30,609 nt of DNA, from IMG/VR virus record IMGVR_UViG_2529292886_000008; one strand, given 5' to 3'. The stretch's first letter is position 1. Every line of letters starts with the position of its first letter. The notes beneath the pieces are model-generated. The model searched no databases. It was not told where the DNA came from and worked only from the letters and a program-made list of their open reading frames with translations. This document shows positions 8,710 to 30,609 of the stretch, one piece after another. The position numbers and the translations under genes are program-made. Origin of the DNA: a virus (lineage: Duplodnaviria; Heunggongvirae; Uroviricota; Caudoviricetes).

Positions 8710-9669
8710 ATGAAAATTTGTATCGACGACGGCTCCACCAACATCAAGCTGGCATGGACTGAGAACGGCGAACGCCGCAACGCCATCAGCCCGAACAGCT
8801 TCAAGTCGGAATGGTCTGCGCCATTCGGTGGCACGCAGCCCGCGAACTACATGCTTGATGGCGTGCGCTATAGTTTTGATCCGGTCAGCGATCGCTTTGT
8901 CCAGACGACCGACACGCAATACCAGTACAGCGATGTGAATGTAATTGCCATTCATCACGCGCTGGTCAAATCAGGCATCACACCACAGGAAGTGGATGTG
9001 GTTGTCACCCTGCCACTGAGCGAGTATTTCGATACAAACGCACAGCCGGACATGGCCAACATCAACCGCAAAAAAGCGAACGTCATGCGCCCGGTGGAGT
9101 ACCAGAACGGCGAAGCATTCACTATCCGTAACGTACGGGTTATGCCTGAATCCATTCCTGCTGGCTTTAAGGCACTGGCTGACATGAGTCCGTTTGAATC
9201 CCTGCTGATTGTGGATTTGGGCGGAACCACGCTGGATGTGGCAAAGGTTCAGGGGCAACTGGCAGGTATCAGCCAGGTGTTTTGCGATCCACACGTAGGC
9301 GTTTCTCTGATGGCCGATGCCGTACTGTCGGTGATGGCCACTAACGGTATGCGCACCAGTCACCACATCGCCAATACCATTATCGAACATCGCCATGATG
9401 AAGCCTGGCTGCGCCAGCACATCCACAATGACGCGCATTACGCCAGCCTGATGGCGGTTATTCGTGAAAAGGAAGAAACACTGAAACAACGCGTGATCCG
9501 CGCGCTGGCGGTTTTTTCGGGTTACGGGCGGGTGATGGTTGTCGGTGGCGGGGCGGAGATTGTGGCAACCGCTATCCGCGAAGCCTGCGGAGTTAATGCG
9601 ACTTTCATCGCGGACGGGGTGCCACAGTTTGCTCTGGTTAATGGGTTGTACGCAATGAACAAGGAGTAA
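8710..9669 (+). CDS. parM: Actin-like segregation ATPase ParM/StbA
   Basis: Phosphate-1 motif ICIDDGSTNIK, phosphate-2 LIVDLGGTTLDV, adenosine motif VMVVGGGAEIV. Overall pattern closely matches plasmid R1 ParM as remembered. Confidence 0.85.
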   Translation: MKICIDDGSTNIKLAWTENGERRNAISPNSFKSEWSAPFGGTQPANYMLDGVRYSFDPVSDRFVQTTDTQYQYSDVNVIAIHHALVKSGITPQEVDVVVTLPLSEYFDTNAQPDMANINRKKANVMRPVEYQNGEAFTIRNVRVMPESIPAGFKALADMSPFESLLIVDLGGTTLDVAKVQGQLAGISQVFCDPHVGVSLMADAVLSVMATNGMRTSHHIANTIIEHRHDEAWLRQHIHNDAHYASLMAVIREKEETLKQRVIRALAVFSGYGRVMVVGGGAEIVATAIREACGVNATFIADGVPQFALVNGLYAMNKE

Positions 9670-9673
9670 ACCA

Positions 9674-9988
9674 ATGACGACACCAACCAGACGGATAAGT
9701 TTCTATCTGAAGCCCGCCGCCGTCAAGAGTGAACAGGAGGCGTGCAATTACCTCGATAGCCTGCCAGCCTCCGAACGCAGCCGCGCGCAACGCGCGGCCT
9801 TTCTGGCTGGGCTAGCACTCATAAAGCGCAACCCAGCATTTGCCTACTGGATGGCCGAATGGCCAGAGGACAACCTCCCCTTCAATACCGTTAGCATCAA
9901 GGAAACATACCAGGCTAATCAGCCTAGCGGAGTTGAATGCAATTTTTATAAAATAAAAAAGAATATTCAGACCTTATTCCCAGAATAA
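9674..9988 (+). CDS. parR: Partition adaptor / repressor ParR (StbB-like)
   Basis: Immediately downstream of parM; segment RISFYLKPAAV..CNYLDSLPASERSRAQRAAFLAGLAL matches ParR N-terminal ribbon-helix-helix region from memory. Confidence 0.7.
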   Translation: MTTPTRRISFYLKPAAVKSEQEACNYLDSLPASERSRAQRAAFLAGLALIKRNPAFAYWMAEWPEDNLPFNTVSIKETYQANQPSGVECNFYKIKKNIQTLFPE

Positions 9989-10037
9989 TCTGATAATTGT
10001 ATGTGAACTAATAAAATACATACCAACACATCATTCT

Positions 10038-10059
10038 GGCACCCTTGCAACAGGGTGCC
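10038..10059. terminator. Hairpin between convergent parR and membrane-protein operon (possible bidirectional terminator)
   Basis: Perfect 8-bp stem GGCACCCT / AGGGTGCC with 6-nt loop; no strong U-run on either side. Confidence 0.4.
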
Positions 10060-10070
10060 AATGTTTCAAA

Positions 10071-10913
10071 TCATGATGAAATTGCCGAAGTTTTTTTATC
10101 GTGCTGAAGTACCGCAAATGCCATTAAAACCTCAAGAGAATAGCGGCGATAATACTTAACAAAACCATAATAAAATACTCGGGATGCAGCAAGACAAAAC
10201 AAGAGAAGAAAACAAAAAGGTAACAGCCTGATATTTATATCTATTAAAAAGGATAGAGGGAACAGACATATAAGCAACCAGACTGAAGCGAGAAAAACAA
10301 ATGTAATGTTTCTACAAAAACCATACAAAGCAACATAGTTTTGCATTTTCACCTGATGATTTTTAGAATGCTCATACACATAATGATAAGCAAGGCGAAA
10401 AAGATCGCCCCTCAAGCCCTTACGTCGATATAGCGTAGATACAGAAAAAACATTTATATAACCATCTCGTATTTGCGGCCAAAAGACTTTAATAAGTATA
10501 GAATGCAGTGTGGTTTTATGATGTTCTGCTTTATCAAAAACTGATACAGGAAGTAGAAAAACTCCACGAATAAAATGAACTATACTGAACTTAGTATTAT
10601 GTCGTTTTATTTTCAGGGGACTTCTTTTAGAAAACAGATAAATTGAAGGATACCCAAGTTTACTGTTCATATATTTTTCAATTAAACAGGATGATAGAAT
10701 AGATATGAAGTGACCTGAAATATATGACAGAACAATTAATACCACATATATAAACACACTTATTATTTCTTTATATTTCAGGATGTGGTTAAAAACACCT
10801 TCTATATAAACAGGGTTAATTTCAATAGAAAACAAAAAAAGGATAAACAGGAATAACCCACCTGGAATTAGATAGCCCAAAAAGTCATAAAATGAAAACG
10901 GATTCTGTGTCAC
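10071..10913 (-). CDS. Multi-pass inner-membrane protein (280 aa), uncharacterised; distal gene of candidate cargo module
   Basis: Long ORF in strongly AT-rich DNA, where random long ORFs are unlikely. About 4-5 hydrophobic helices. Start overlaps the stop of the upstream gene. Confidence 0.7.
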   Translation of the reverse strand: MTQNPFSFYDFLGYLIPGGLFLFILFLFSIEINPVYIEGVFNHILKYKEIISVFIYVVLIVLSYISGHFISILSSCLIEKYMNSKLGYPSIYLFSKRSPLKIKRHNTKFSIVHFIRGVFLLPVSVFDKAEHHKTTLHSILIKVFWPQIRDGYINVFSVSTLYRRKGLRGDLFRLAYHYVYEHSKNHQVKMQNYVALYGFCRNITFVFLASVWLLICLFPLSFLIDINIRLLPFCFLLLFCLAASRVFYYGFVKYYRRYSLEVLMAFAVLQHDKKTSAISS

Positions 10914-11449
10914 ACTTCCCCCTGTGTTACTTGTAAATTAAAGGGTAAAACATTATTTGTTTTCCGTAAAGGATTAGCTTTCCATCTTCTTACTAACCAT
11001 TCGAATTCTTGATATGTAGTATCCGAATTAATGCTTTCTCTGATTGCTTTAATTAATGGCTCGGCAATATCATATGTCTCTACAACTGTTGTGTAAGATG
11101 TTCTTTTTATCATTTTTTCATCATAAATACCTTCACGAATACTTACAGCAACTCGCTCGTAAAAATTTAAAATATATTGAAATTTTCGACGCTCGGCCAT
11201 TTCCTCATCTGTTATTGTACAACCATCACAAGGAAAAACATAAGAACGAAATGATTTGCCTGAACGATGCACTTGTTTCAGGGTATGCAATGACTCTATA
11301 TATTGCATATCTTGCCGACTCTCAAAAAGAAAGTTAGCCGTTTGAGTTTTCTTTGCGGTACGCACATTGTAGATAATGGTTCCAATGGCAACCAAAACGC
11401 CAAGCAGAACAATAGCATTGCTGATGATTTGTAGTGTTATTGGGTTCAT
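10910..11449 (-). CDS. Single-pass N-terminally anchored membrane protein (179 aa), uncharacterised; proximal gene of candidate cargo module
   Basis: N-terminal TM helix (ITLQIISNAIVLLGVLVAIGTIIY) followed by soluble domain with paired Cys (FPCDGC). AT-rich; overlaps downstream gene by 4 nt. Confidence 0.7.
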   Translation of the reverse strand: MNPITLQIISNAIVLLGVLVAIGTIIYNVRTAKKTQTANFLFESRQDMQYIESLHTLKQVHRSGKSFRSYVFPCDGCTITDEEMAERRKFQYILNFYERVAVSIREGIYDEKMIKRTSYTTVVETYDIAEPLIKAIRESINSDTTYQEFEWLVRRWKANPLRKTNNVLPFNLQVTQGEV

Positions 11450-23306: not shown

Positions 23307-25466
23307 ATGAGTACCACAACACGAAAATTTAAAACCATTATCACTGATACTGGTGCCAAAAAATTAGCTCAGGCAGCCGCGCCAGATGGTAATCCTGTCC
23401 GCCTGACTCACATGGCCGTGGGCGACGGTGGCGGCACGTTGCCCACACCAGACAGTAAGCAGACCCGTCTGGTGCATGAGGTGTGGCGACATACTGTTAA
23501 TCGCGTCATCCTGGACGCAACACATCAGAACCGCATTATTGCGGAGCTGGTTATTCCTCCTGAAACGGGCGGATTCTGGATCCGGGAAATTGGTGTATTT
23601 GATGAGCACGGCGATTTGATCGCGGTGGGCAATACTGCCGAAAGTTACAAACCAACCGTTGCCGAAGGATCCGGACGTGCACAAACATTTCGCACCATTC
23701 TGACCGTATCCAGCACTGCCACCGTGGCGCTTACCGTGGATAACACCATGGTTATGGCCACAGTGGATTACGTGAATGACAAACTGAAAGAACATGAACA
23801 GTCACGACGTCACCCGGACGCCTCGCTGACCGCAAAAGGCTTTGTTCAACTCAGTAGCGCCACCAACAGCACGTCTGAAGCACTGGCCGCAACGCCGAAA
23901 GCGGTCAAGGCAGCCTATGACCTTGCTATCGGGAAATATACCGCACAGGACGCCACTACAGCGCGGAAAGGACTTGTCCAGCTCAGTAGCGCCACCAACA
24001 GCGATTCAGAAACGCTGGCGGCAACACCAAAGGCGGTAAAGGCAACATATGACCTTGCTAACGGGAAATATACTGCGCAGGATGCCACCACAGCGCGGAA
24101 AGGCCTTGTCCAGCTCAGTAGCGCCACCAACAGCACGTCTGAAGCACTGGCCGCAACACCGAAAGCGGTAAAGACAGCATATGACCTTGCTAACGGGAAA
24201 TATACCGCTCAGGACGCTACGACAGCACAAAAAGGGATTGTCCAGCTAAGCAGCGCGACTAACAGCGCATCTGAAACGCTTGCTGCGACATCGAAAGCAG
24301 TGAAAGCAGCTAATGACAATGCGAATGGTCGGGTACCTTCTGCCCGTAAGGTGAATGGTAAGGCGCTTTCAGCGGATATAACACTGACACCGAAAGATAT
24401 TGGTACGCTTAACTCAACAACTATGTCATTCAGCGGTGGTGCTGGTTGGTTCAAATTAGCAACGGTAACCATGCCGCAGGCGAGTTCTGTTGTTTCAATT
24501 ACGTTGATTGGTGGGGCTGGATATAACGTCGGTTCACCTCAACAGGCAGGTATATCTGAACTTGTTTTGCGTGCAGGTAATGGTAATCCGAAGGGGATTA
24601 CTGGTGCTTTATGGCAGCGCACATCGGCAGGGTTTACAAATTTTGCCTGGGTCAATACATCTGGTGATACTTACGATATTTACGTTGCAATCGGAAATTA
24701 TGCGACTGGTGTAAATATTCAATGGGATTATACCAGTAACGCCAGCGTAACGATTCATACTTCACCAGCATATTCTGCTAATAAGCCGGAAGGATTAACG
24801 GACGGTTCTGTTTATTCGCTGTATATTTCGCCTCATGAACTTTATCCGGTTGGCGCACCGATCCCTTGGCCATCAGATACCGTTCCGTCTGGTTATGCCC
24901 TGATGCAGGGGCAGACTTTTGACAAATCTGCATACCCGAAACTTGCAGCCGCTTATCCGTCAGGCGTGATCCCTGATATGCGTGGCTGGACGATTAAGGG
25001 CAAGCCCGCCAGTGGTCGTGCCGTATTGTCTCAGGAACAGGACGGCATTAAATCGCACACCCACAGCGCCAGCGTATCCAGTACGGATTTGGGTACGAAA
25101 ACCACATCGTCGTTTGATTACGGGACGAAAACAACCTCACTATTTGACTATGGGACCAAAACTACCAGTAACGCCGGGAGTCACACGCATTCAATACCAA
25201 CATCAGATGGTGCAAACCAGGGGGGGAAAATTCCACTGACATCTGGGCGTCTGGCAACTCAATATACATCAGCAACAACAGGTTCCTCTGGCTCACATTC
25301 TCATACTGTAGGTATTGGTTCTCATCAGCACACTGTCGGTATTGGTGCACACACGCACTCGGTTGCGATTGGCTCACATGGACACACCATCACCGTTAAC
25401 GCTGCTGGTAACGCGGAAAACACCGTCAAAAACATCGCATTTAACTATATTGTGAGGCTTGCATGA
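23307..25466 (+). CDS. H: Tail fibre protein (P2 gpH-like) with internal fibre repeats and HxH-rich C-terminal tip
   Basis: N-terminus [25 protein letters not shown] typical of gpH; C-terminal [11 protein letters not shown]; four 44-aa repeats; HxH motifs near C-terminus. Confidence 0.9.
23838..24340 (+). repeat. In-frame tandem repeat, about 3.8 copies of a 132-bp unit, inside tail fibre gene H
   Basis: Repeat starts at 23838, 23970, 24102, 24234, encoding G(F/L/I)[33 protein letters not shown](R/Q)K. Confidence 0.85.
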
Positions 25467-26365
25467 TTACGCTCATTCTTTCTGCACCAGTAACAGAAAT
25501 GGCTGAAGCATTTAAGCGGGTATTTGCAAACGCAGATAATGTGAATATTGTCGGAAAGCCATTTGAAACAATCAGAGAATTTGACTGTATGGTAAGTGCG
25601 GCAAATAGTTTCGGCCTGATGGATGGCGGTGTTGATGCCGCCATTACCGCATTCTTCGGTACTCAGTTACAGTCCCGCGTTCAGAATCATATTCTTCGTG
25701 AATATCTAGGCGAGCAGCCTGTAGGATCTGCGTTTGTTATTGAAACGGGGCATAATCATCACCCCTGGCTGGTACATGCGCCAACAATGCGTGTTCCGCT
25801 GACAATTGACGGAACAGACGCTGTATATAACGCAACCTGGGCCGCTCTGCTTGCCATCTTTCAGCACAATAAAAACGCAACGACAGACAGGAAAATAAAG
25901 ACGGTGGTATTCCCTGCGATGGGGGCTGGATGTGGTCAGGTACCGTTTGAAAGTGTTGCCCGCCAGATGAAGCAGGCCTGGGATAACTTTAATAAAAAAA
26001 CAGAATCAATTAACTGGGAATACGCACAATCCCGCCAGTCGGCAGTATTTGGCACATATGCATACTGTCCGGGTAATTCTGTTTGCCGTTATGCGGATGC
26101 TAAATATATTGGATGCGGCGATTATCGGACGTATTGCTCACGTTCCGGGCAGGTCTGTATTAACCCTGAACATCAGGCTGATGATGTACTGATACAACAT
26201 CAGGCTAATAACCGGTTTCGCCCTGATTCGCATATACACCGGATTAATCCAGAAAATCCCGTAGGTAATGTCACCTCTGGCGCACATAGCCACAGAAGTA
26301 GCATCGTTATTGGTGCTCACACCCATACGCTCAATAAACAATATTCTGTCTCTGATATTAAGTAG
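25463..26365 (+). CDS. Macro-domain (ADP-ribose binding/processing) protein with Cys-rich and HxH-containing C-terminal region
   Basis: Macro motifs [18 protein letters not shown] and [15 protein letters not shown]-terminus [18 protein letters not shown] resembles HxH repeats in the upstream fibre tip; ATGA overlap with H stop. Confidence 0.75.
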
Positions 26366-26367
26366 AG

Positions 26368-26952
26368 GTGAACATGGATTTCAGAATGAGTGAACAACCA
26401 CGGACCATAAAAATTTATAATCTGCTGGCCGGAACTAATGAATTTATTGGTGAAGGTGACGCATACATTCCGCCTCATACAGGTCTGCCAGCAAACAGTA
26501 CCGATATTGCACCGCCAGATATTCCGGCTGGCTTCGTGGCTGTTTTCAACAGTAATGAGGCATCGTGGCATCTCGTTGAAGATCATCGGGGTAAAACGGT
26601 TTATGACGTGGCTTCCGGCGACGCGTTATTTATTTCTGAACTCGGTCCGTTACCGGAAAATGTTACCTGGTTGTCGCCGGATGGAGAGTGTCAGAAGTGG
26701 AACGGCACATCCTGGGCGAAAGATGCAGAAGCAGAAAAACTGTTTCGGGTACGGGAGGCAGAAGAAACAAAAAACAGCCTGATGCAGGTAGCCAGTGAGC
26801 ATATTGCGCCACTTCAGGATGCCGTAGATTTGGATATTGCGACGGAGGAAGAGGCATCGTTACTGGCTGCATGGAAGACATATCGGGTATTGTTGAATCG
26901 TGTTGATACAACAGTAGCAGCGGATGTTGAGTGGCCAGTCGCCCCACAATAA
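26368..26952 (+). CDS. G: Tail fibre assembly chaperone (P2 gpG / Tfa-like)
   Basis: 194 aa; N-terminal region [39 protein letters not shown] typical of the Tfa family; GTG/ATG start at 26368/26374. Confidence 0.8.
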
Positions 26953-26958
26953 AAAGAA

Positions 26959-26988
26959 AAAGCCATCGACAGAAATATCGATGGCTTT
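26959..26988. terminator. Bidirectional rho-independent terminator between convergent tfa and acetyltransferase genes
   Basis: Perfect 11-bp stem AAAGCCATCGA / TCGATGGCTTT with 8-nt loop, flanked by A-run upstream and T-rich sequence downstream. Confidence 0.6.
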
Positions 26989-26995
26989 ATGTACT

Positions 26996-27568
26996 CTATT
27001 TATACAATACAACACCACTCTTTTTAGTTATATATGTGCAGTTTGATGGTATATCTTTATTTATAAAAGACATTGCACCTATTTTTACATTATCCCCAAT
27101 TTTACGTGATAATCCAATGATGCAACAATTAGCTCCGATATCAACGTTACTACCAATTTTTACTCTTGAACTAGGCATATCACCATCTATCTGTCCAATG
27201 GTAGTATTCTGTCGTAATACCAGATTTTCACCCGCATCAACAGCAAAATGAACAACAATTCCAGCATGATGGGGAATTGTCAACCCTTTTCCAATATTTG
27301 CGCCCAATCCTATTTCACAACCAAACTTGTTAATTATTTTACTGTTTAACTTTTTGGCTGCTTTCTTATGTAATTTATTACCATTAATATACATTTCGTT
27401 AGCCAACCGCCACCAGAAAAGGAAATTCCGGTTACGCTGCTTTTTCTCTCTTAAAAGCCTCCAGATATCCATACGTTTCCGCCGAATTACTTCATGTTTC
27501 CAGAAGTTTTTTAAATTAGTAGAGTTTCCAAATAAAACAAAGTGAATTGCCATTAAGTAAGATAGCAC
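26996..27568 (-). CDS. Hexapeptide-repeat (left-handed beta-helix) acetyltransferase, CysE/WcaB-like; lysogenic-conversion-type cargo
   Basis: C-terminal hexapeptide repeats (GCEIGLGANIGKGL..IGSNVDIGANCCIIG..IGDNVKIGAMS). Strongly AT-rich. Preferred start is the GTG at 27566-27568 with a perfect AAGGAG 6 nt upstream; the open frame extends to 27601. Confidence 0.75.
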   Translation of the reverse strand: MLSYLMAIHFVLFGNSTNLKNFWKHEVIRRKRMDIWRLLREKKQRNRNFLFWWRLANEMYINGNKLHKKAAKKLNSKIINKFGCEIGLGANIGKGLTIPHHAGIVVHFAVDAGENLVLRQNTTIGQIDGDMPSSRVKIGSNVDIGANCCIIGLSRKIGDNVKIGAMSFINKDIPSNCTYITKKSGVVLYK

Positions 27569-27724
27569 GATAATCTCCTTAATTATTATTTCAGACCACA
27601 CATGTTATAAGGTTAAGAGATTATAAAATCCTGTTATTTGTTATTCAAAAACAATTTTCTGAGAAGGACATACAACAGCAAGTCGCCAGTCACCTTCATC
27701 AGGAAATTGGCGACATACGTTAAA

Positions 27725-28219
27725 TCAGAGCAGCCCCTTAACTGAGCTGGCCGCGCTATTAAGGGATGATGTCACCTTATCTTTGAAGCCGGACAGCATA
27801 TCGCTGAACGATGAGGATTGCAGGCGCTCCCGCAAATCCTCATCACAGCGTTCAAGAGTCAGTGAAAATTCTATCTTTTTCGCCTTACCGTAGCGATCAA
27901 ACTCGGAGCGGGTCGTATTCGTTCCGGTCAGGACATACATGCCGTAAATCTGCCCGACGCCATCAATCAAAGGCCAAGGACGTCCTGTATATGCCTGCGT
28001 GGTCAACAACGACAGCGACACTTCGCCACCAGTAATCTCAGGATAAAGAACACCAGAAAGAACGATGCGATCATCACCTGCACCGATATACTGCCAGCTT
28101 GCTGAACGGTTAACGCGTTCATTTTTCACATGTCGCCAGCTTTTGTTTTGCTGTAACTGCTGATGCGGCAACGTGCGCAGCTCAAAAACAAACATGCCGT
28201 AGATCATCATCATGGCCAT
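27725..28219 (-). CDS. U: Tail protein U (P2 gpU-like)
   Basis: 164 aa; pattern MMMIYGMFVFEL..SWRH..LSGVL.PEITGG..WPLIDG.GQIYGMYV..KIEFSLTLER matches gpU family from memory; tightly coupled downstream of tape measure. Confidence 0.75.
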   Translation of the reverse strand: MAMMMIYGMFVFELRTLPHQQLQQNKSWRHVKNERVNRSASWQYIGAGDDRIVLSGVLYPEITGGEVSLSLLTTQAYTGRPWPLIDGVGQIYGMYVLTGTNTTRSEFDRYGKAKKIEFSLTLERCDEDLRERLQSSSFSDMLSGFKDKVTSSLNSAASSVKGLL

Positions 28220-28225
28220 GACTCC

Positions 28226-30439
28226 TCAATCTTTATCGTAAAAACTGCCACGCCTGGCACGGGCGCGCCGTTCCATTTCTGCCCTGACCATTTCGCCGAC
28301 CAGTTTCGCCAGTTCGCGGGGATTCTGCGTAACAACGTTATGCAGATGAACATGAATTTCACCGCCAAATCCGGAGGCAACAGGCTCCCGGTTACGGGAA
28401 GTTGCAGGAACTGATGCCACTGGCGATCGTATGGCCTCCACCACCGGGCGGGAGCTGGCCGCAACAACAGGGACCAGCGCCGGAGGCAGCGGAGCCGGGA
28501 CCACGGGTGTGATATTAATTGCGGGGGCAGGCTTACTGACCTGCGCAATCTTCCGCTCCTGCCACTCCCCACGAACAGCAAGTGCGCGGGGCAGGTTCTT
28601 AAAGACAATATCGCCGGGGCCAATGCGTTTTTTTGTCTCATCAACCAGCTTACCTGTGTTATCAGCAATTTTGCTGAGTCTGCGTAGCGTGCCGGTATTG
28701 CTGTCTGTGAGAGGTTTGTTGTCTTTGGGTTTATCATCTCCGGTGCCATTGCTATTTCCCGCAGACTTCGGCGGATTGATTTTCGCAATGTCTCCCTGAA
28801 ACAGAGCAACCTTGTCCTGAAGAATGGCCGCACGTTGTGCGTCTTCGATTTTCTTGCGCGCCCTTTCCGCTTCATCCGGAAGCACACCGAGTTTTTCAAG
28901 TATCCACGCCAGCGTATCCAGCAACATTTTTGCAGGCGTCAGAACAAGCTGTAACGCACCACCAAGAACGTTACCGAATACCTCGCCAGCACTGGTACAT
29001 TTATCCAGCGTTTCCTTGCTGGACTCCATCGGTGACAGCAGCGATTTAAACCAGTTAAACACCTGGCTGATCCCGCTTCCGATTACGTCAAAAACAGGGC
29101 CAAACCGTTCAAAGGTGTCGCGCAACGGGGTCAGCCTTTCCATAATCCCGCTGAACACCCCGGCAAAGAAAGCCCTGATAGGATCCCAGTATTTCCAGAT
29201 AAGAACGGCAGCTCCGGCAAGCGCAGCCACGATAAGACCAACCGGACTGAACAACGCCCCGATAACGCCTCCCAGTAAAGAAACGGAACCCGTCACCATT
29301 CCCCATAGCGCAGGTAACACCCTGACGACATTCATTGACCGGGTAAGAATGTCAAAACCAAGACGCAGGGTGGCCAGCTTCCCGTAAAGCACCCCAATAA
29401 CCAGCGACAACGAGCCAATCGTTGCAGTCATTGCCAGCAACGCACCGCCTGCTATCAGTAGCTGGCGCGTCAGTACCGGATGGGCCTGCGCCAGCGAGGT
29501 GATTTTTTCAAGCACCCGCGTGAGCCACTGCGTGACAGAACGCAGCGGACCGTCAACCAGATCACTGATGCGAATACGAAGACCTTCCCATGCGCTGTCG
29601 AGATTTTTCAGGTCCCCATCAAGATTATCAGCCATTACTTTTGCGACGCGATCGGCCTCTCCCCTTGCCCCCTGCAATTCTCTGGTCAGTTTTTGCAGCT
29701 CTCCTGAACCAGCCGCCGCAACAAGCGTCTGCAAACCAACGAACGCCTCTTCTCCGGCGATGTCCTTGAAGAAGGAGACCTGGTCCACCTGTCCGTATTT
29801 TTGTGTCGCCTTATAGAGATCAAGCAGCACATCCTCCATCGGGCGCATTTTGCCTCTGGCGTCAGCAACTGACACCCCCAGCTCTTTCAGTGCATCAGCC
29901 GCAGCTTTTGGCGGTGATGCAAGGCGGGACAGACTTGCGCGCATGGCCGTGCCAGCATCGCTTCCGCGAAGACCATTATTGGCAAGCATCCCGGCCATGG
30001 CCGCCGCTTCTTCAAGACTGATACCAAGTTTTGCGGCAACCGGACCGGTATACTTCATGGTTTCGCCCAGCGCGCGTAAATCAGTATTGGTCCGGGTAAA
30101 TGCTGCTGTCAGCGTATCGCCCACCCGGTCCATTTGATCGGCTGTCAGGTTGAACTGTGTGAGGATATTGGAGCCTATATCAGCCGTCTCGCCGAGTTCG
30201 ACGCCACCTGCCAGCGCCATATTAAGAACACCGGGCAATGCGGCCTGAATGGCCTGCGGAGTAAAACCAGCCATTGCCAGAAAGCTCTGCCCACTGGCGG
30301 CATCACTCGCAGTAAACTGTGTTTCAGCAAGTTTTAACGCCTGCTCACGCAGCGCCTTAAACTGCGGGCTGTTTTTGTCGATTCGCGTCAGTGCCTGAAC
30401 GCGGGACATCTCTTTGCCGAACCCGATCGCAGGCTGCAA
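28226..30439 (-). CDS. T: Tail tape measure protein (P2 gpT-like); 5' end possibly beyond window edge
   Basis: 737 aa from the first in-frame start codon (TTG at 30439), helical and Ala/Gly-rich with hydrophobic central block. The frame stays open to position 30609, so the true start may lie upstream or outside the window. Confidence 0.8.
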   Translation of the reverse strand: MQPAIGFGKEMSRVQALTRIDKNSPQFKALREQALKLAETQFTASDAASGQSFLAMAGFTPQAIQAALPGVLNMALAGGVELGETADIGSNILTQFNLTADQMDRVGDTLTAAFTRTNTDLRALGETMKYTGPVAAKLGISLEEAAAMAGMLANNGLRGSDAGTAMRASLSRLASPPKAAADALKELGVSVADARGKMRPMEDVLLDLYKATQKYGQVDQVSFFKDIAGEEAFVGLQTLVAAAGSGELQKLTRELQGARGEADRVAKVMADNLDGDLKNLDSAWEGLRIRISDLVDGPLRSVTQWLTRVLEKITSLAQAHPVLTRQLLIAGGALLAMTATIGSLSLVIGVLYGKLATLRLGFDILTRSMNVVRVLPALWGMVTGSVSLLGGVIGALFSPVGLIVAALAGAAVLIWKYWDPIRAFFAGVFSGIMERLTPLRDTFERFGPVFDVIGSGISQVFNWFKSLLSPMESSKETLDKCTSAGEVFGNVLGGALQLVLTPAKMLLDTLAWILEKLGVLPDEAERARKKIEDAQRAAILQDKVALFQGDIAKINPPKSAGNSNGTGDDKPKDNKPLTDSNTGTLRRLSKIADNTGKLVDETKKRIGPGDIVFKNLPRALAVRGEWQERKIAQVSKPAPAINITPVVPAPLPPALVPVVAASSRPVVEAIRSPVASVPATSRNREPVASGFGGEIHVHLHNVVTQNPRELAKLVGEMVRAEMERRARARRGSFYDKD

Positions 30440-30609
30440 AAAACGCCCGGCAGCATAGCCGCCCGCCGCTGCCGCACCAATTGCCAGCGCACCACCTGTT
30501 TTCAGTTTTCCCGCGGTTTCCTGCGCGTGCGAATACTGAACCGCCCCGGAAATCCTGGAGACTAAACTCCCTGAGAAAGAGGTAAACAGGATGACTAAAA
30601 ATACTCGTT

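What the first reader, a model, noticed from the sequence alone, without database searches (positions are those of the whole stretch)
26996..27601. AT-rich hexapeptide acetyltransferase cargo at the Z/fun-equivalent slot
A left-handed beta-helix acyltransferase (CysE/WcaB-like hexapeptide repeats) sits between the tail-fibre assembly gene and the tail block, where P2 carries the lysogenic-conversion gene Z/fun. It has its own strong terminator (26959-26988) and a perfect AAGGAG RBS. It is a candidate surface-polysaccharide (O-antigen or capsule) acetyltransferase that could alter the receptor and provide superinfection immunity or serotype conversion.
Basis: partly seen in the sequence, partly recalled or inferred. 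Interest (0 to 1): 0.45.

Follow-up and report, generated by a model that had tools for sequence, protein, structure and literature searches.

The report
Prophage sugar acetyltransferase beside tail-fibre genes
A small, AT-rich gene in a P2-like prophage of E. coli O157:H7 encodes an enzyme mislabelled "serine acetyltransferase"; it is not a cysteine-synthesis enzyme, and it most likely acetylates a cell-surface sugar (probably in lipopolysaccharide), though no experiment has tested this.

Summary
A 190-aa left-handed beta-helix acetyltransferase is encoded at 26996-27568 (-); the real start is the GTG at 27568, not 27601. It has an AAGGAG ribosome-binding site, a strong terminator and about 33% GC against about 50% in the flanks. 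It lies just after tail-fibre assembly gene G and converges on it, as fun(Z) does in P2. Relatives in canonical P2-like genomes sit exactly between G and FI.

It is not CysE. It scores far below every curated cut-off. The catalytic His/acid dyad is kept, but four serine-binding positions are replaced.

The gene is under purifying selection (dN/dS 0.07-0.18) and occurs in 529 of 5426 complete E. coli genomes. It travels with a fibre tip and fibre chaperone among P2-like prophages, P1-like phage-plasmids (inside the invertible C segment) and another myovirus.

A sister subclade (about 48-52% identity) sits beside waaZ in an LPS-core cluster. In other prophages it sits beside GT9 or GT25 glycosyltransferase genes.

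Best reading: a cytoplasmic envelope-glycan O-acetyltransferase, probably acting on LPS core, that works as a lysogenic-conversion or receptor-masking gene. No experiment exists. It is a new member of a known kind, of moderate interest.

The parts
26996..27568 (-). Acetyltransferase gene (190 aa, GTG start; CysE-fold N-terminal helical domain plus left-handed beta-helix)
   Evidence: ORF. RefSeq CDS WP_000954203.1. NCBIfam, Pfam and PDB hits. AF2 model and Foldseek. PHROG 2154 matched over its full length at 2.9e-87. dN/dS 0.07-0.18.
27575..27580 (-). Ribosome-binding site AAGGAG, 6 nt before the GTG at 27568
   Evidence: Read directly from the sequence.
27620..27648 (-). Sigma-70-like promoter candidate, TTGAAT-17-TATAAT (10 of 12 matches)
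   Evidence: Consensus scan. This is a consensus match only: the number of such sites in the region does not exceed the shuffle expectation. Homology with the third myovirus prophage (L003) extends to 27650 and includes this site; homology with P1-like phages stops at the start codon.
26959..26988 (-). Intrinsic terminator of the acetyltransferase gene; it may also terminate the convergent tail-fibre operon
   Evidence: 13-bp stem plus T-run. Fold energy -20.9 kcal/mol, z = -6.45.
26374..26952 (+). Tail-fibre assembly (chaperone) gene G/tfa, the conserved partner of the acetyltransferase gene
   Evidence: RefSeq annotation. PHROG 105. The tfa and acetyltransferase genes are about 92% identical as one block in P2-like, P1-like and a third myovirus.
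24845..25470 (+). 3' part of tail-fibre gene H (fibre tip), which travels with the tfa and acetyltransferase genes
   Evidence: blastn: 79-98% identity to the fibre tips next to the tfa and acetyltransferase genes in L002, L003, L004, L103 and L104.
27725..28219 (-). Tail gene U, the upstream neighbour on the same strand. It marks the inverted FI-U tail block.
   Evidence: PHROG 76. RefSeq 'phage tail protein'. GpU Pfam match in the L005 equivalent.

Best explanation
The gene is a self-contained prophage cargo gene (a 'moron'). Its product is a soluble, cytoplasmic, acetyl-CoA-dependent O-acetyltransferase with the serine-acetyltransferase fold and a different acceptor pocket.

The most likely acceptor is a sugar of a cell-envelope glycan while it is assembled on the cytoplasmic face of the inner membrane. 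LPS, and specifically its core oligosaccharide, is the best guess. In a lysogen this would change the surface that P1-, P2- and Mu-type tail fibres bind. The result would be lysogenic conversion or receptor masking.

The gene spreads as part of a recombining cassette of fibre tip, fibre chaperone and acetyltransferase.

Shown: the fold, the conserved catalytic dyad, the loss of serine-binding residues, purifying selection, the cassette linkage, and the LPS-gene neighbours of sister-clade members.

Inferred: the acceptor, expression in the lysogen, and any effect on phage adsorption.
For: Fold and chemistry. The protein has a CysE-like fold. By the alignment, NgSAT catalytic His162 maps to H100, which is at least 90% conserved in the family, and Asp147 maps to E85, which is D or E across the family.

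Functional gene. dN/dS is 0.07-0.18 across alleles. The gene is present in 529 of 5426 complete E. coli genomes.

LPS-type neighbours of family members.
- Leminorella: GT4, GT8, WaaY, WaaZ (TIGR04437, 402 bits against a cut-off of 200), then the acetyltransferase gene, convergent with WaaL (442 bits against 277).
- Halomonas: WaaZ (223 bits against 200) immediately upstream, with ugd downstream.
- Xenorhabdus prophage: the acetyltransferase gene plus a GT25 gene, between the integrase and the tail fibre.
- Morganella prophage: the acetyltransferase gene plus a gene with a weak GT9 (heptosyltransferase family) match, next to the tail fibre.
- Intestinirhabdus: convergent with ugd and arn genes.
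- Viral contigs L177 and L178 (63% identity to the window protein): convergent with an HtrL_YibB-family gene.

Link to tail fibres. Among 20 diverged viral loci (45-85% identity), 10 neighbouring genes match Caudo_TAP and 5 match DUF4376. The tfa and acetyltransferase genes are about 92% identical as one block, and the adjacent fibre tip is 79-98% identical, in P2-like, P1-like (inside the invertible C segment) and a third myovirus.

Receptor. P1, P2 and 186 all need an intact LPS core to infect (PMC7553319).

Target is probably not an O-unit. Alleles of 97.6% DNA identity occur in O157:H7 and O111:H8, which favours a target shared across serotypes.
Against: No experiment exists. The one paper that mentions the gene (JL22 'sacF', PMC9603915) says the reason for its presence is unknown.

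The LPS-linked members form a sister subclade, 51-64% identical to one another and only 48-52% identical to this protein. Acceptor specificity may differ between subclades.

Many family members are orphans among unrelated housekeeping genes.

The end of a tail-fibre operon is a general cargo slot. The same tfa type is followed by a GIY-YIG nuclease plus a restriction-modification system, or by pinQ, in other strains. It occurs at 10522 places in 4675 genomes, whereas the acetyltransferase gene occurs at about 599. Adjacency therefore need not mean a functional link.

From my own knowledge, O-acetylation of E. coli core types has not been reported.

The promoter is a consensus match no more frequent than chance.
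Confidence: 0.4

Rival explanations
1. It acetylates another surface polysaccharide rather than LPS core. Candidates are O-antigen units, enterobacterial common antigen, colanic acid or a capsule.
For: The nearest curated families are exopolysaccharide and colanic-acid acetyltransferases: EpsC at 76 bits and WcaB at 55 bits. Und-PP-linked units are also built on the cytoplasmic face, so the chemistry fits equally well (established knowledge). From my own knowledge there is a precedent: the prophage-encoded beta-helix enzyme NeuO acetylates K1 polysialic acid.
Against: All these scores are far below the equivalog cut-offs. No family member examined lies in an O-antigen, capsule or colanic-acid cluster. 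Nearly identical alleles occur in different O serotypes. There is no phase-variable repeat of the NeuO type.
Confidence: 0.25
2. It acetylates something that is not a glycan, for example a small molecule, a xenobiotic or a protein. Its role would be phage defence or counter-defence, as expected for cargo in the fun(Z) slot.
For: In P2, fun(Z) occupies the same slot, and the cloned gene blocks growth of T5. The slot downstream of the same tfa type holds defence genes in other strains, for example a GIY-YIG nuclease plus a restriction-modification system. The acceptor-binding loop is highly variable within the family.
Against: No PADLOC model matches. No xenobiotic, chloramphenicol or streptogramin acetyltransferase family appears among the 25 NCBIfam hits shown. 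The recurrent functional neighbours are glycosyltransferases and waa genes, not defence genes.
Confidence: 0.15
3. It is a genuine serine O-acetyltransferase, as annotated: an auxiliary metabolic gene that boosts O-acetylserine and cysteine supply.
For: RefSeq, UniProt and the phage records name it so. The closest solved structures are CysE. The catalytic dyad is conserved.
Against: TIGR01172 scores 62.3 bits against a cut-off of 210.65, and NF008349 scores 36.4 against 397. The NgSAT serine-binding residues Asp161, Glu170, Arg196 and His197 align with Pro99, Phe108, Ser134 and Arg135. The protein ends 10 residues after the aligned beta-helix and its last residue is Lys (with sequence). It therefore lacks the long C-terminal tail ending in Ile that binds CysK (established knowledge). 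There is no cysteine-pathway context.
Confidence: 0.05
4. It is a functionless passenger, kept only because it sits next to a highly recombinogenic tfa gene.
For: The tfa type is far more common than the acetyltransferase gene. Shorter or partial annotated copies exist (P0016, 141 aa; JL22 sacF annotated as 477 nt; partial members).
Against: dN/dS is 0.07-0.18 over alleles with dS up to about 1.8. The 190-aa frame is intact in all seven alleles compared. Family-wide motifs are invariant.
Confidence: 0.05

Closest known systems
Serine O-acetyltransferase CysE (for example N. gonorrhoeae SAT, PDB 6WYE/7RA4)
   Same: Same two-domain architecture: an N-terminal helical domain followed by a left-handed beta-helix. 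It is the best match by sequence and by fold. The catalytic His/acid dyad is conserved.
   Different: Only about 25% identity. Scores lie far below the curated cut-offs. Four substrate-binding positions are replaced. The N-terminal domain is shorter, there is no long C-terminal regulatory tail, and the context is a prophage.
Polysaccharide acetyltransferases of the CysE-like branch: EpsC (NF041874) and WcaB (TIGR04016, colanic acid)
   Same: Same size class (about 160-190 aa). EpsC is the best NCBIfam hit, and WcaB ranks just below CysE. From established knowledge, they act in the cytoplasm on sugar acceptors.
   Different: 76 bits against 150 and 54 bits against 195, so it is not an equivalog of either. 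It is never found in an EPS or colanic-acid cluster in the contexts examined.
P2 fun(Z) and other P2 lysogenic-conversion cargo
   Same: Same slot and orientation: after G and the V-operon terminator, convergent with G. In canonical P2-like contigs it lies exactly between G and FI. It is AT-rich and a separate transcription unit.
   Different: The proteins are unrelated (fun(Z) is 528 aa). The phenotype of this gene is unknown.
Prophage-encoded surface-glycan O-acetyltransferases: Sf6 Oac (Acyl_transf_3 membrane protein) and CUS-3 NeuO (beta-helix enzyme, K1 polysialic acid). Named from my own knowledge.
   Same: The proposed biology is the same: a temperate phage acetylates a host surface glycan. 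NeuO shows that a cytoplasmic beta-helix enzyme can do this.
   Different: No Acyl_transf_3 domain. Only a weak NeuD-family hit, 30.6 bits against 160.8. No phase-variable repeats. The location is next to the tail-fibre chaperone. The likely target is core-type LPS rather than O-antigen or capsule.

Membership tests
Left-handed beta-helix (hexapeptide-repeat) acyltransferase superfamily | Hexapeptide repeats that form a left-handed beta-helix | tested here: met
   Hexapep E 2.7e-5 (24.1 bits, just under the gathering score of 27) and Hexapep_2 E 0.0033. 28 NCBIfam beta-helix families hit. All listed Foldseek hits are beta-helix SATs with probability 1.0. The beta-helix part of the model has only moderate confidence, pLDDT 57-75.
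Serine O-acetyltransferase CysE | Score at or above the curated equivalog cut-off (TIGR01172, NF008349) | tested here: not met
   62.3 bits against 210.65, and 36.4 against 397.
Serine O-acetyltransferase CysE | Catalytic His-Asp dyad (NgSAT His162/Asp147) | tested here: met
   By the alignment, His162 maps to H100 (at least 90% conserved in 38 homologues) and Asp147 maps to E85 (D or E in the family). Residue roles are taken from PMC8786284.
Serine O-acetyltransferase CysE | L-serine-binding residues (NgSAT Asp161, Glu170, Arg196, His197; Asp96) | tested here: not met
   They align with Pro99, Phe108, Ser134 and Arg135. This loop is variable and gapped across the family. Asp96 lies outside the aligned region and was not assessable.
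Serine O-acetyltransferase CysE | C-terminal tail ending in Ile that binds CysK, and a cysteine-biosynthesis or housekeeping context | tested here: not met
   The protein ends ...SGVVLYK, 10 residues after the aligned beta-helix (with sequence). The gene lies in a prophage between tail genes. The Ile requirement is from established knowledge.
Colanic-acid acetyltransferase WcaB / EPS acetyltransferase EpsC | Equivalog score and location in the matching polysaccharide gene cluster | tested here: not met
   WcaB scores 54-55 bits against 195-196, and EpsC scores 76 against 150. No such cluster appears in any context examined.
P2-type lysogenic-conversion cargo at the fun(Z) locus | Non-structural, AT-rich gene between G and FI, transcribed against the late operons | tested here: met
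   Same orientation and position relative to G as in P2. GC is 0.33. In L172, L174, L176 and L188 the order is FII, FI, acetyltransferase, tfa, H. In the window itself the FI-U block is inverted, so U rather than FI is the neighbour.
P2-type lysogenic-conversion cargo at the fun(Z) locus | A phenotype conferred on the lysogen | not testable with these tools
   No experimental report was found.
Phage O-antigen acetylase Oac type (Acyl_transf_3) | Integral-membrane Acyl_transf_3 domain | tested here: not met
   The Pfam scan returns only Hexapep-type families. The model is a soluble helical domain plus beta-helix.
NeuO/NeuD-type sialate O-acetyltransferases | NeuD-family score; for NeuO, 5' heptanucleotide phase-variation repeats | tested here: not met
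   TIGR03570 scores 30.6 bits against 160.8. No tandem repeats at 26900-27760.
LPS-core modification enzymes (proposed functional class) | Co-location with waa-type core biosynthesis genes | tested here: inconclusive
   Met for sister-clade members: the waaY, waaZ, acetyltransferase and waaL arrangement in Leminorella; the waaZ and acetyltransferase pair in Halomonas; GT25 and GT9 partners in prophages. These are only 48-52% identical to this protein. The window gene itself has no such partner.

The most novel reading that the evidence does not exclude
The acetyltransferase is the receptor-masking third part of a mobile host-range cassette made of fibre tip, fibre chaperone and acetyltransferase. 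It would O-acetylate the LPS core, which is the receptor class used by the fibres it travels with. This would hold even inside the invertible C segment of P1-like phage-plasmids. A lysogen would then be shielded from phages carrying the same fibre type, and released progeny would not be lost on lysogen debris. It would be the first phage-encoded LPS-core O-acetylation system in E. coli, and it is carried by about 10% of sequenced strains, including O157:H7.
Probability: 0.2. Interest if true: 0.65.

Novelty: new member of a known kind. Interest (0 to 1): 0.4.

Why it matters
The protein is annotated as "serine O-acetyltransferase" in more than a thousand records, and that label is almost certainly wrong. 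It occurs in 529 of 5426 complete E. coli genomes, including the O157:H7, O111 and other STEC/EPEC strains listed, and in P1-like phage-plasmids.

If it acetylates LPS, it would alter a receptor used by many phages. That is relevant to phage therapy and phage typing of STEC. It could also alter an immunologically relevant surface structure.

The linkage to exchangeable tail-fibre cassettes suggests a simple and testable rule: a phage carries a modifier of the receptor next to the module that reads that receptor. One knockout, LPS mass spectrometry and adsorption assays would settle it.

Tried and rejected
- PADLOC gave no defence-family match for the protein.
- Literature searches found no functional study. 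The hotspot papers on P2-like phages do not mention an acetyltransferase; the hotspot described in PMC9122126 holds old/tin-type cargo such as partition systems. An O157 proteome paper gave no information on this protein.
- I looked for inverted repeats that could make the FI-U block an invertible segment in the O111 prophage. None bound the block.
- I considered a conserved 258-261-aa partner in Pseudomonas loci. Those ORFs are unrelated or spurious; only the Leminorella and Halomonas partners are homologous, and both are WaaZ.
- The bulk neighbour scan of distant chromosomal homologues showed mostly unrelated housekeeping genes, with no conserved operon.
- There are no phase-variation repeats.
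- The idea that the tfa gene and the acetyltransferase gene always go together is rejected. The tfa type is about 17 times more frequent, and the slot holds other cargo elsewhere.
- I could not test whether presence of the gene correlates with R3 core type, because full hit lists are not returned.

Full report
**What is there**

The window is a P2-like prophage of E. coli O157:H7. The stretch 26900-27760 is 100% identical to strain PV15-279 and to many other O157 genomes. The map runs from the integrase end through replication gene A, portal Q, terminase P, capsid genes, lysis genes and baseplate genes to tail fibre H and chaperone G.

The finding's ORF is real. The functional start is the GTG at 27568, preceded by AAGGAG and a 6-nt spacer. 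That gives the 190-aa RefSeq protein WP_000954203.1, which is UniProt A0A0H3JG20_ECO57. Homologues start at the same position.

GC falls to 0.325-0.35 over the gene, against 0.46-0.50 beside it. A 13-bp hairpin followed by a T-run lies just after the stop codon on the coding strand. It folds at -20.9 kcal/mol with z = -6.45.

A TTGAAT-17-TATAAT site lies about 50 nt upstream of the start. Such consensus matches are no more frequent here than in shuffled sequence, so the promoter is only a candidate. Gene U ends 155 nt upstream on the same strand and is followed by only a weak hairpin. Read-through from the tail operon is therefore also possible in this arrangement.

**What kind of protein**

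Pfam gives Hexapep at E 2.7e-5, just under the gathering score. The best NCBIfam matches are EpsC (76 bits, cut-off 150), CysE (62.3, cut-off 210.65) and WcaB (54-55, cut-off about 195). None is reached.

The closest solved structures by sequence are serine acetyltransferases (6WYE, 1.5e-12). An AlphaFold2 model built on 38 homologues has pLDDT 78. Its helical N-terminal domain is confident (about 90) and its beta-helix less so (57-75). A Foldseek search of the PDB with this model lists only serine acetyltransferases among its 50 hits.

Residue roles come from the N. gonorrhoeae SAT paper (PMC8786284) and the mapping from the alignment:
- Catalytic His162 aligns with H100, which is at least 90% conserved in the family.
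- Its partner Asp147 aligns with E85, which is D or E across the family.
- The substrate-contact residues Asp161, Glu170, Arg196 and His197 align with Pro99, Phe108, Ser134 and Arg135. This loop is variable and gapped across the family.

The long C-terminal regulatory tail of CysE is absent. The protein is therefore very probably an active acetyl-CoA-dependent O-acetyltransferase, but not a serine acetyltransferase.

**Is it a working gene**

Pairwise dN/dS between alleles from O157, O111, a third prophage type, two P1-like elements and a 71%-identical P2-like allele is 0.07-0.18. The 190-aa frame is intact in all seven alleles compared.

The gene occurs in 529 of 5426 complete E. coli genomes. 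Of 599 places, 533 are chromosomal and 66 are on plasmids. It also belongs to PHROG 2154, a family of unknown function.

**Where it sits**

In the P2 record the order is G, V-operon terminator, fun(Z) on the opposite strand, pF promoter, then FI-FII-E-T-U-D-ogr. In the window the acetyltransferase gene has the same position and orientation relative to G.

In P2-like viral contigs that carry 65-67%-identical alleles, the order is FII, FI, acetyltransferase, tfa, H. That is the canonical fun(Z) slot.

In the window lineage the FI-U block is inverted, so U faces the gene. In O157 the block is also truncated by IS1203 just past the window end.

**A mobile cassette**

By blastn, the tfa gene, the terminator and the acetyltransferase gene are about 92% identical as one block in three phage types. 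The adjacent fibre tip is 79-98% identical. The three types are:
- P2-like prophages.
- A different myovirus prophage in strain 13E0725.
- P1-like phage-plasmids of the genus Punavirus.

In JL22 the gene lies between the two convergent chaperone genes. It is inside a 4.26-kb segment bounded by 602-nt inverted repeats that are 99% complementary, next to cin. This is the invertible C segment. In P1-like elements the homology stops exactly at the start codon.

A 71%-identical allele shares an identical C-terminal 34 residues with the window allele, which points to recombination inside the gene.

At greater divergence the association persists. Among 20 viral loci with 45-85% identity, 10 genes within two positions match Caudo_TAP, 5 match DUF4376 and 6 match the fibre Collar domain.

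The link is one-way, however. This tfa type occurs at 10522 places in 4675 genomes. Elsewhere it is followed by other cargo, such as a GIY-YIG nuclease plus a restriction-modification system, or pinQ.

**What the relatives' neighbours say**

Most distant chromosomal homologues are orphans among unrelated genes. Where there is a functional neighbour, it is LPS-related:
- Leminorella grimontii: the gene is the last in the waa core operon, after GT4, GT8, WaaY and WaaZ, and faces WaaL. Both WaaZ and WaaL score above their equivalog cut-offs.
- A Halomonas MAG: a WaaZ homologue, 37% identical to the Leminorella one and above its cut-off, lies immediately upstream, with ugd downstream.
- Xenorhabdus prophage: the acetyltransferase gene and a GT25 gene lie between the integrase and the tail fibre.
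- Morganella prophage: the acetyltransferase gene is followed by a gene with a weak GT9 (heptosyltransferase family) match, next to the tail fibre.
- Intestinirhabdus: the gene is convergent with ugd and arn genes.
- Viral contigs L177 and L178, at 63% identity to the window protein: the gene is convergent with an HtrL_YibB-family gene.

The first five belong to one subclade. Its members are 51-64% identical to one another and only 48-52% identical to the window protein. The transfer of function is therefore suggestive, not secure.

**Mechanism proposed**

Beta-helix acetyltransferases use acetyl-CoA and are cytoplasmic. The core oligosaccharide is built on lipid A at the cytoplasmic face of the inner membrane before flipping (established knowledge). 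A core sugar is therefore an accessible acceptor.

Genome-wide screens show that P1, P2 and 186 need an intact LPS core to infect (PMC7553319). Near-identical alleles occur in O157:H7 and O111:H8, which favours a target shared across serotypes over a specific O-unit.

I therefore rank LPS-core acetylation with receptor masking or lysogenic conversion first (0.4). Next come other envelope polysaccharides (0.25), a non-glycan target or a defence role (0.15), true serine acetyltransferase (0.05) and a functionless passenger (0.05).

**Novelty and verdict**

No functional study was found. The JL22 paper explicitly calls the gene's presence unexplained (PMC9603915).

The thing is a new, widespread and mis-annotated member of a known kind: temperate-phage cargo that modifies the host surface. 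It is not a new principle. Interest is moderate at 0.4. The cassette and receptor-masking reading, if proven, would deserve more.

Noticed in passing
window 25463-26365 (+): A 300-aa macro-domain protein (PF01661, 8e-19; PHROG 2613; weak DarG hit in PADLOC, E 0.0044) is inserted exactly between tail-fibre gene H and the chaperone gene. Among the loci compared by blastn it is present only in the O157 type: in L002, L003, L004, L103 and L104 the alignment jumps from about 25470 to about 26380. Its C-terminus carries His-rich, fibre-like repeats. A macro-domain neighbour also appears among the diverged viral loci. An ADP-ribose-binding or -hydrolysing domain in a fibre module is unexplained.
   Followed up: partly
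window 27725-30609 (-); L001 20826-26529; L002 9736-16588: The FI-FII-E-T-U tail block is inverted relative to P2 in this prophage lineage (O157, O111, CP66-6, and the prophages carrying the P0007 allele). Gene D is only 247-266 aa, against 387 aa in P2. In O157 the tape-measure gene is cut by IS1203, and FI, FII and E are missing, so the prophage is defective. No inverted repeats bound the block.
   Followed up: partly
window 8710-11449: Between replication gene A and portal gene Q (the position of old/tin in P2, from my own knowledge) lie a ParM/StbB-type partition pair (8710-9988, +) and a two-gene cassette on the minus strand. The cassette is a 280-aa protein with no Pfam match (PHROG 12528; weak Csx27 hit in PADLOC, 4e-5) plus a DUF4760 protein. 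It is a candidate defence system.
   Followed up: partly
window 26717-26915 (+): The Rfam family IS009 matches at 191 bits (gathering score 117), entirely inside the 3' part of the tail-fibre assembly gene. The 'sRNA' family may simply be this highly conserved tfa segment.
   Followed up: no
window 4882-5079 (+): isrK (63 bits) and C4 antisense RNA (78.5 bits) lie side by side in the early region. From my own knowledge this looks like a P1/P7-type c4-ant immunity element inside a P2-like prophage.
   Followed up: no
L103 (phage JL22) 3805-9268: In P1-like phage-plasmids the acetyltransferase gene lies inside the invertible C segment (602-nt inverted repeats, 99% complementary, next to cin), between the two alternative fibre and chaperone sets. 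It flips with the host-range switch.
   Followed up: yes
L019 2302-7815; L028 5001-6384: A waaZ (Kdo III transferase) and acetyltransferase gene pair recurs in Leminorella (inside the waa cluster, facing waaL) and in a Halomonas MAG. This suggests an undescribed acetylation step tied to the inner-core Kdo region.
   Followed up: partly
L005 5617-6605: In the 71%-identical P2-like lineage, a truncated second tfa copy (87 aa) and a class-I methyltransferase gene lie between the chaperone gene and the acetyltransferase gene. That allele's last 34 residues are identical to the window allele, so it is a recombination mosaic.
   Followed up: partly
L011-L013 (EPEC plasmids) 5001-5594: A 50%-identical family member lies on 113-127-kb plasmids, downstream of genes that look like a type IV pilus cluster (prepilin peptidase and SLT-domain matches) and among IS66 and IS fragments. 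The family is therefore not restricted to phages.
   Followed up: no
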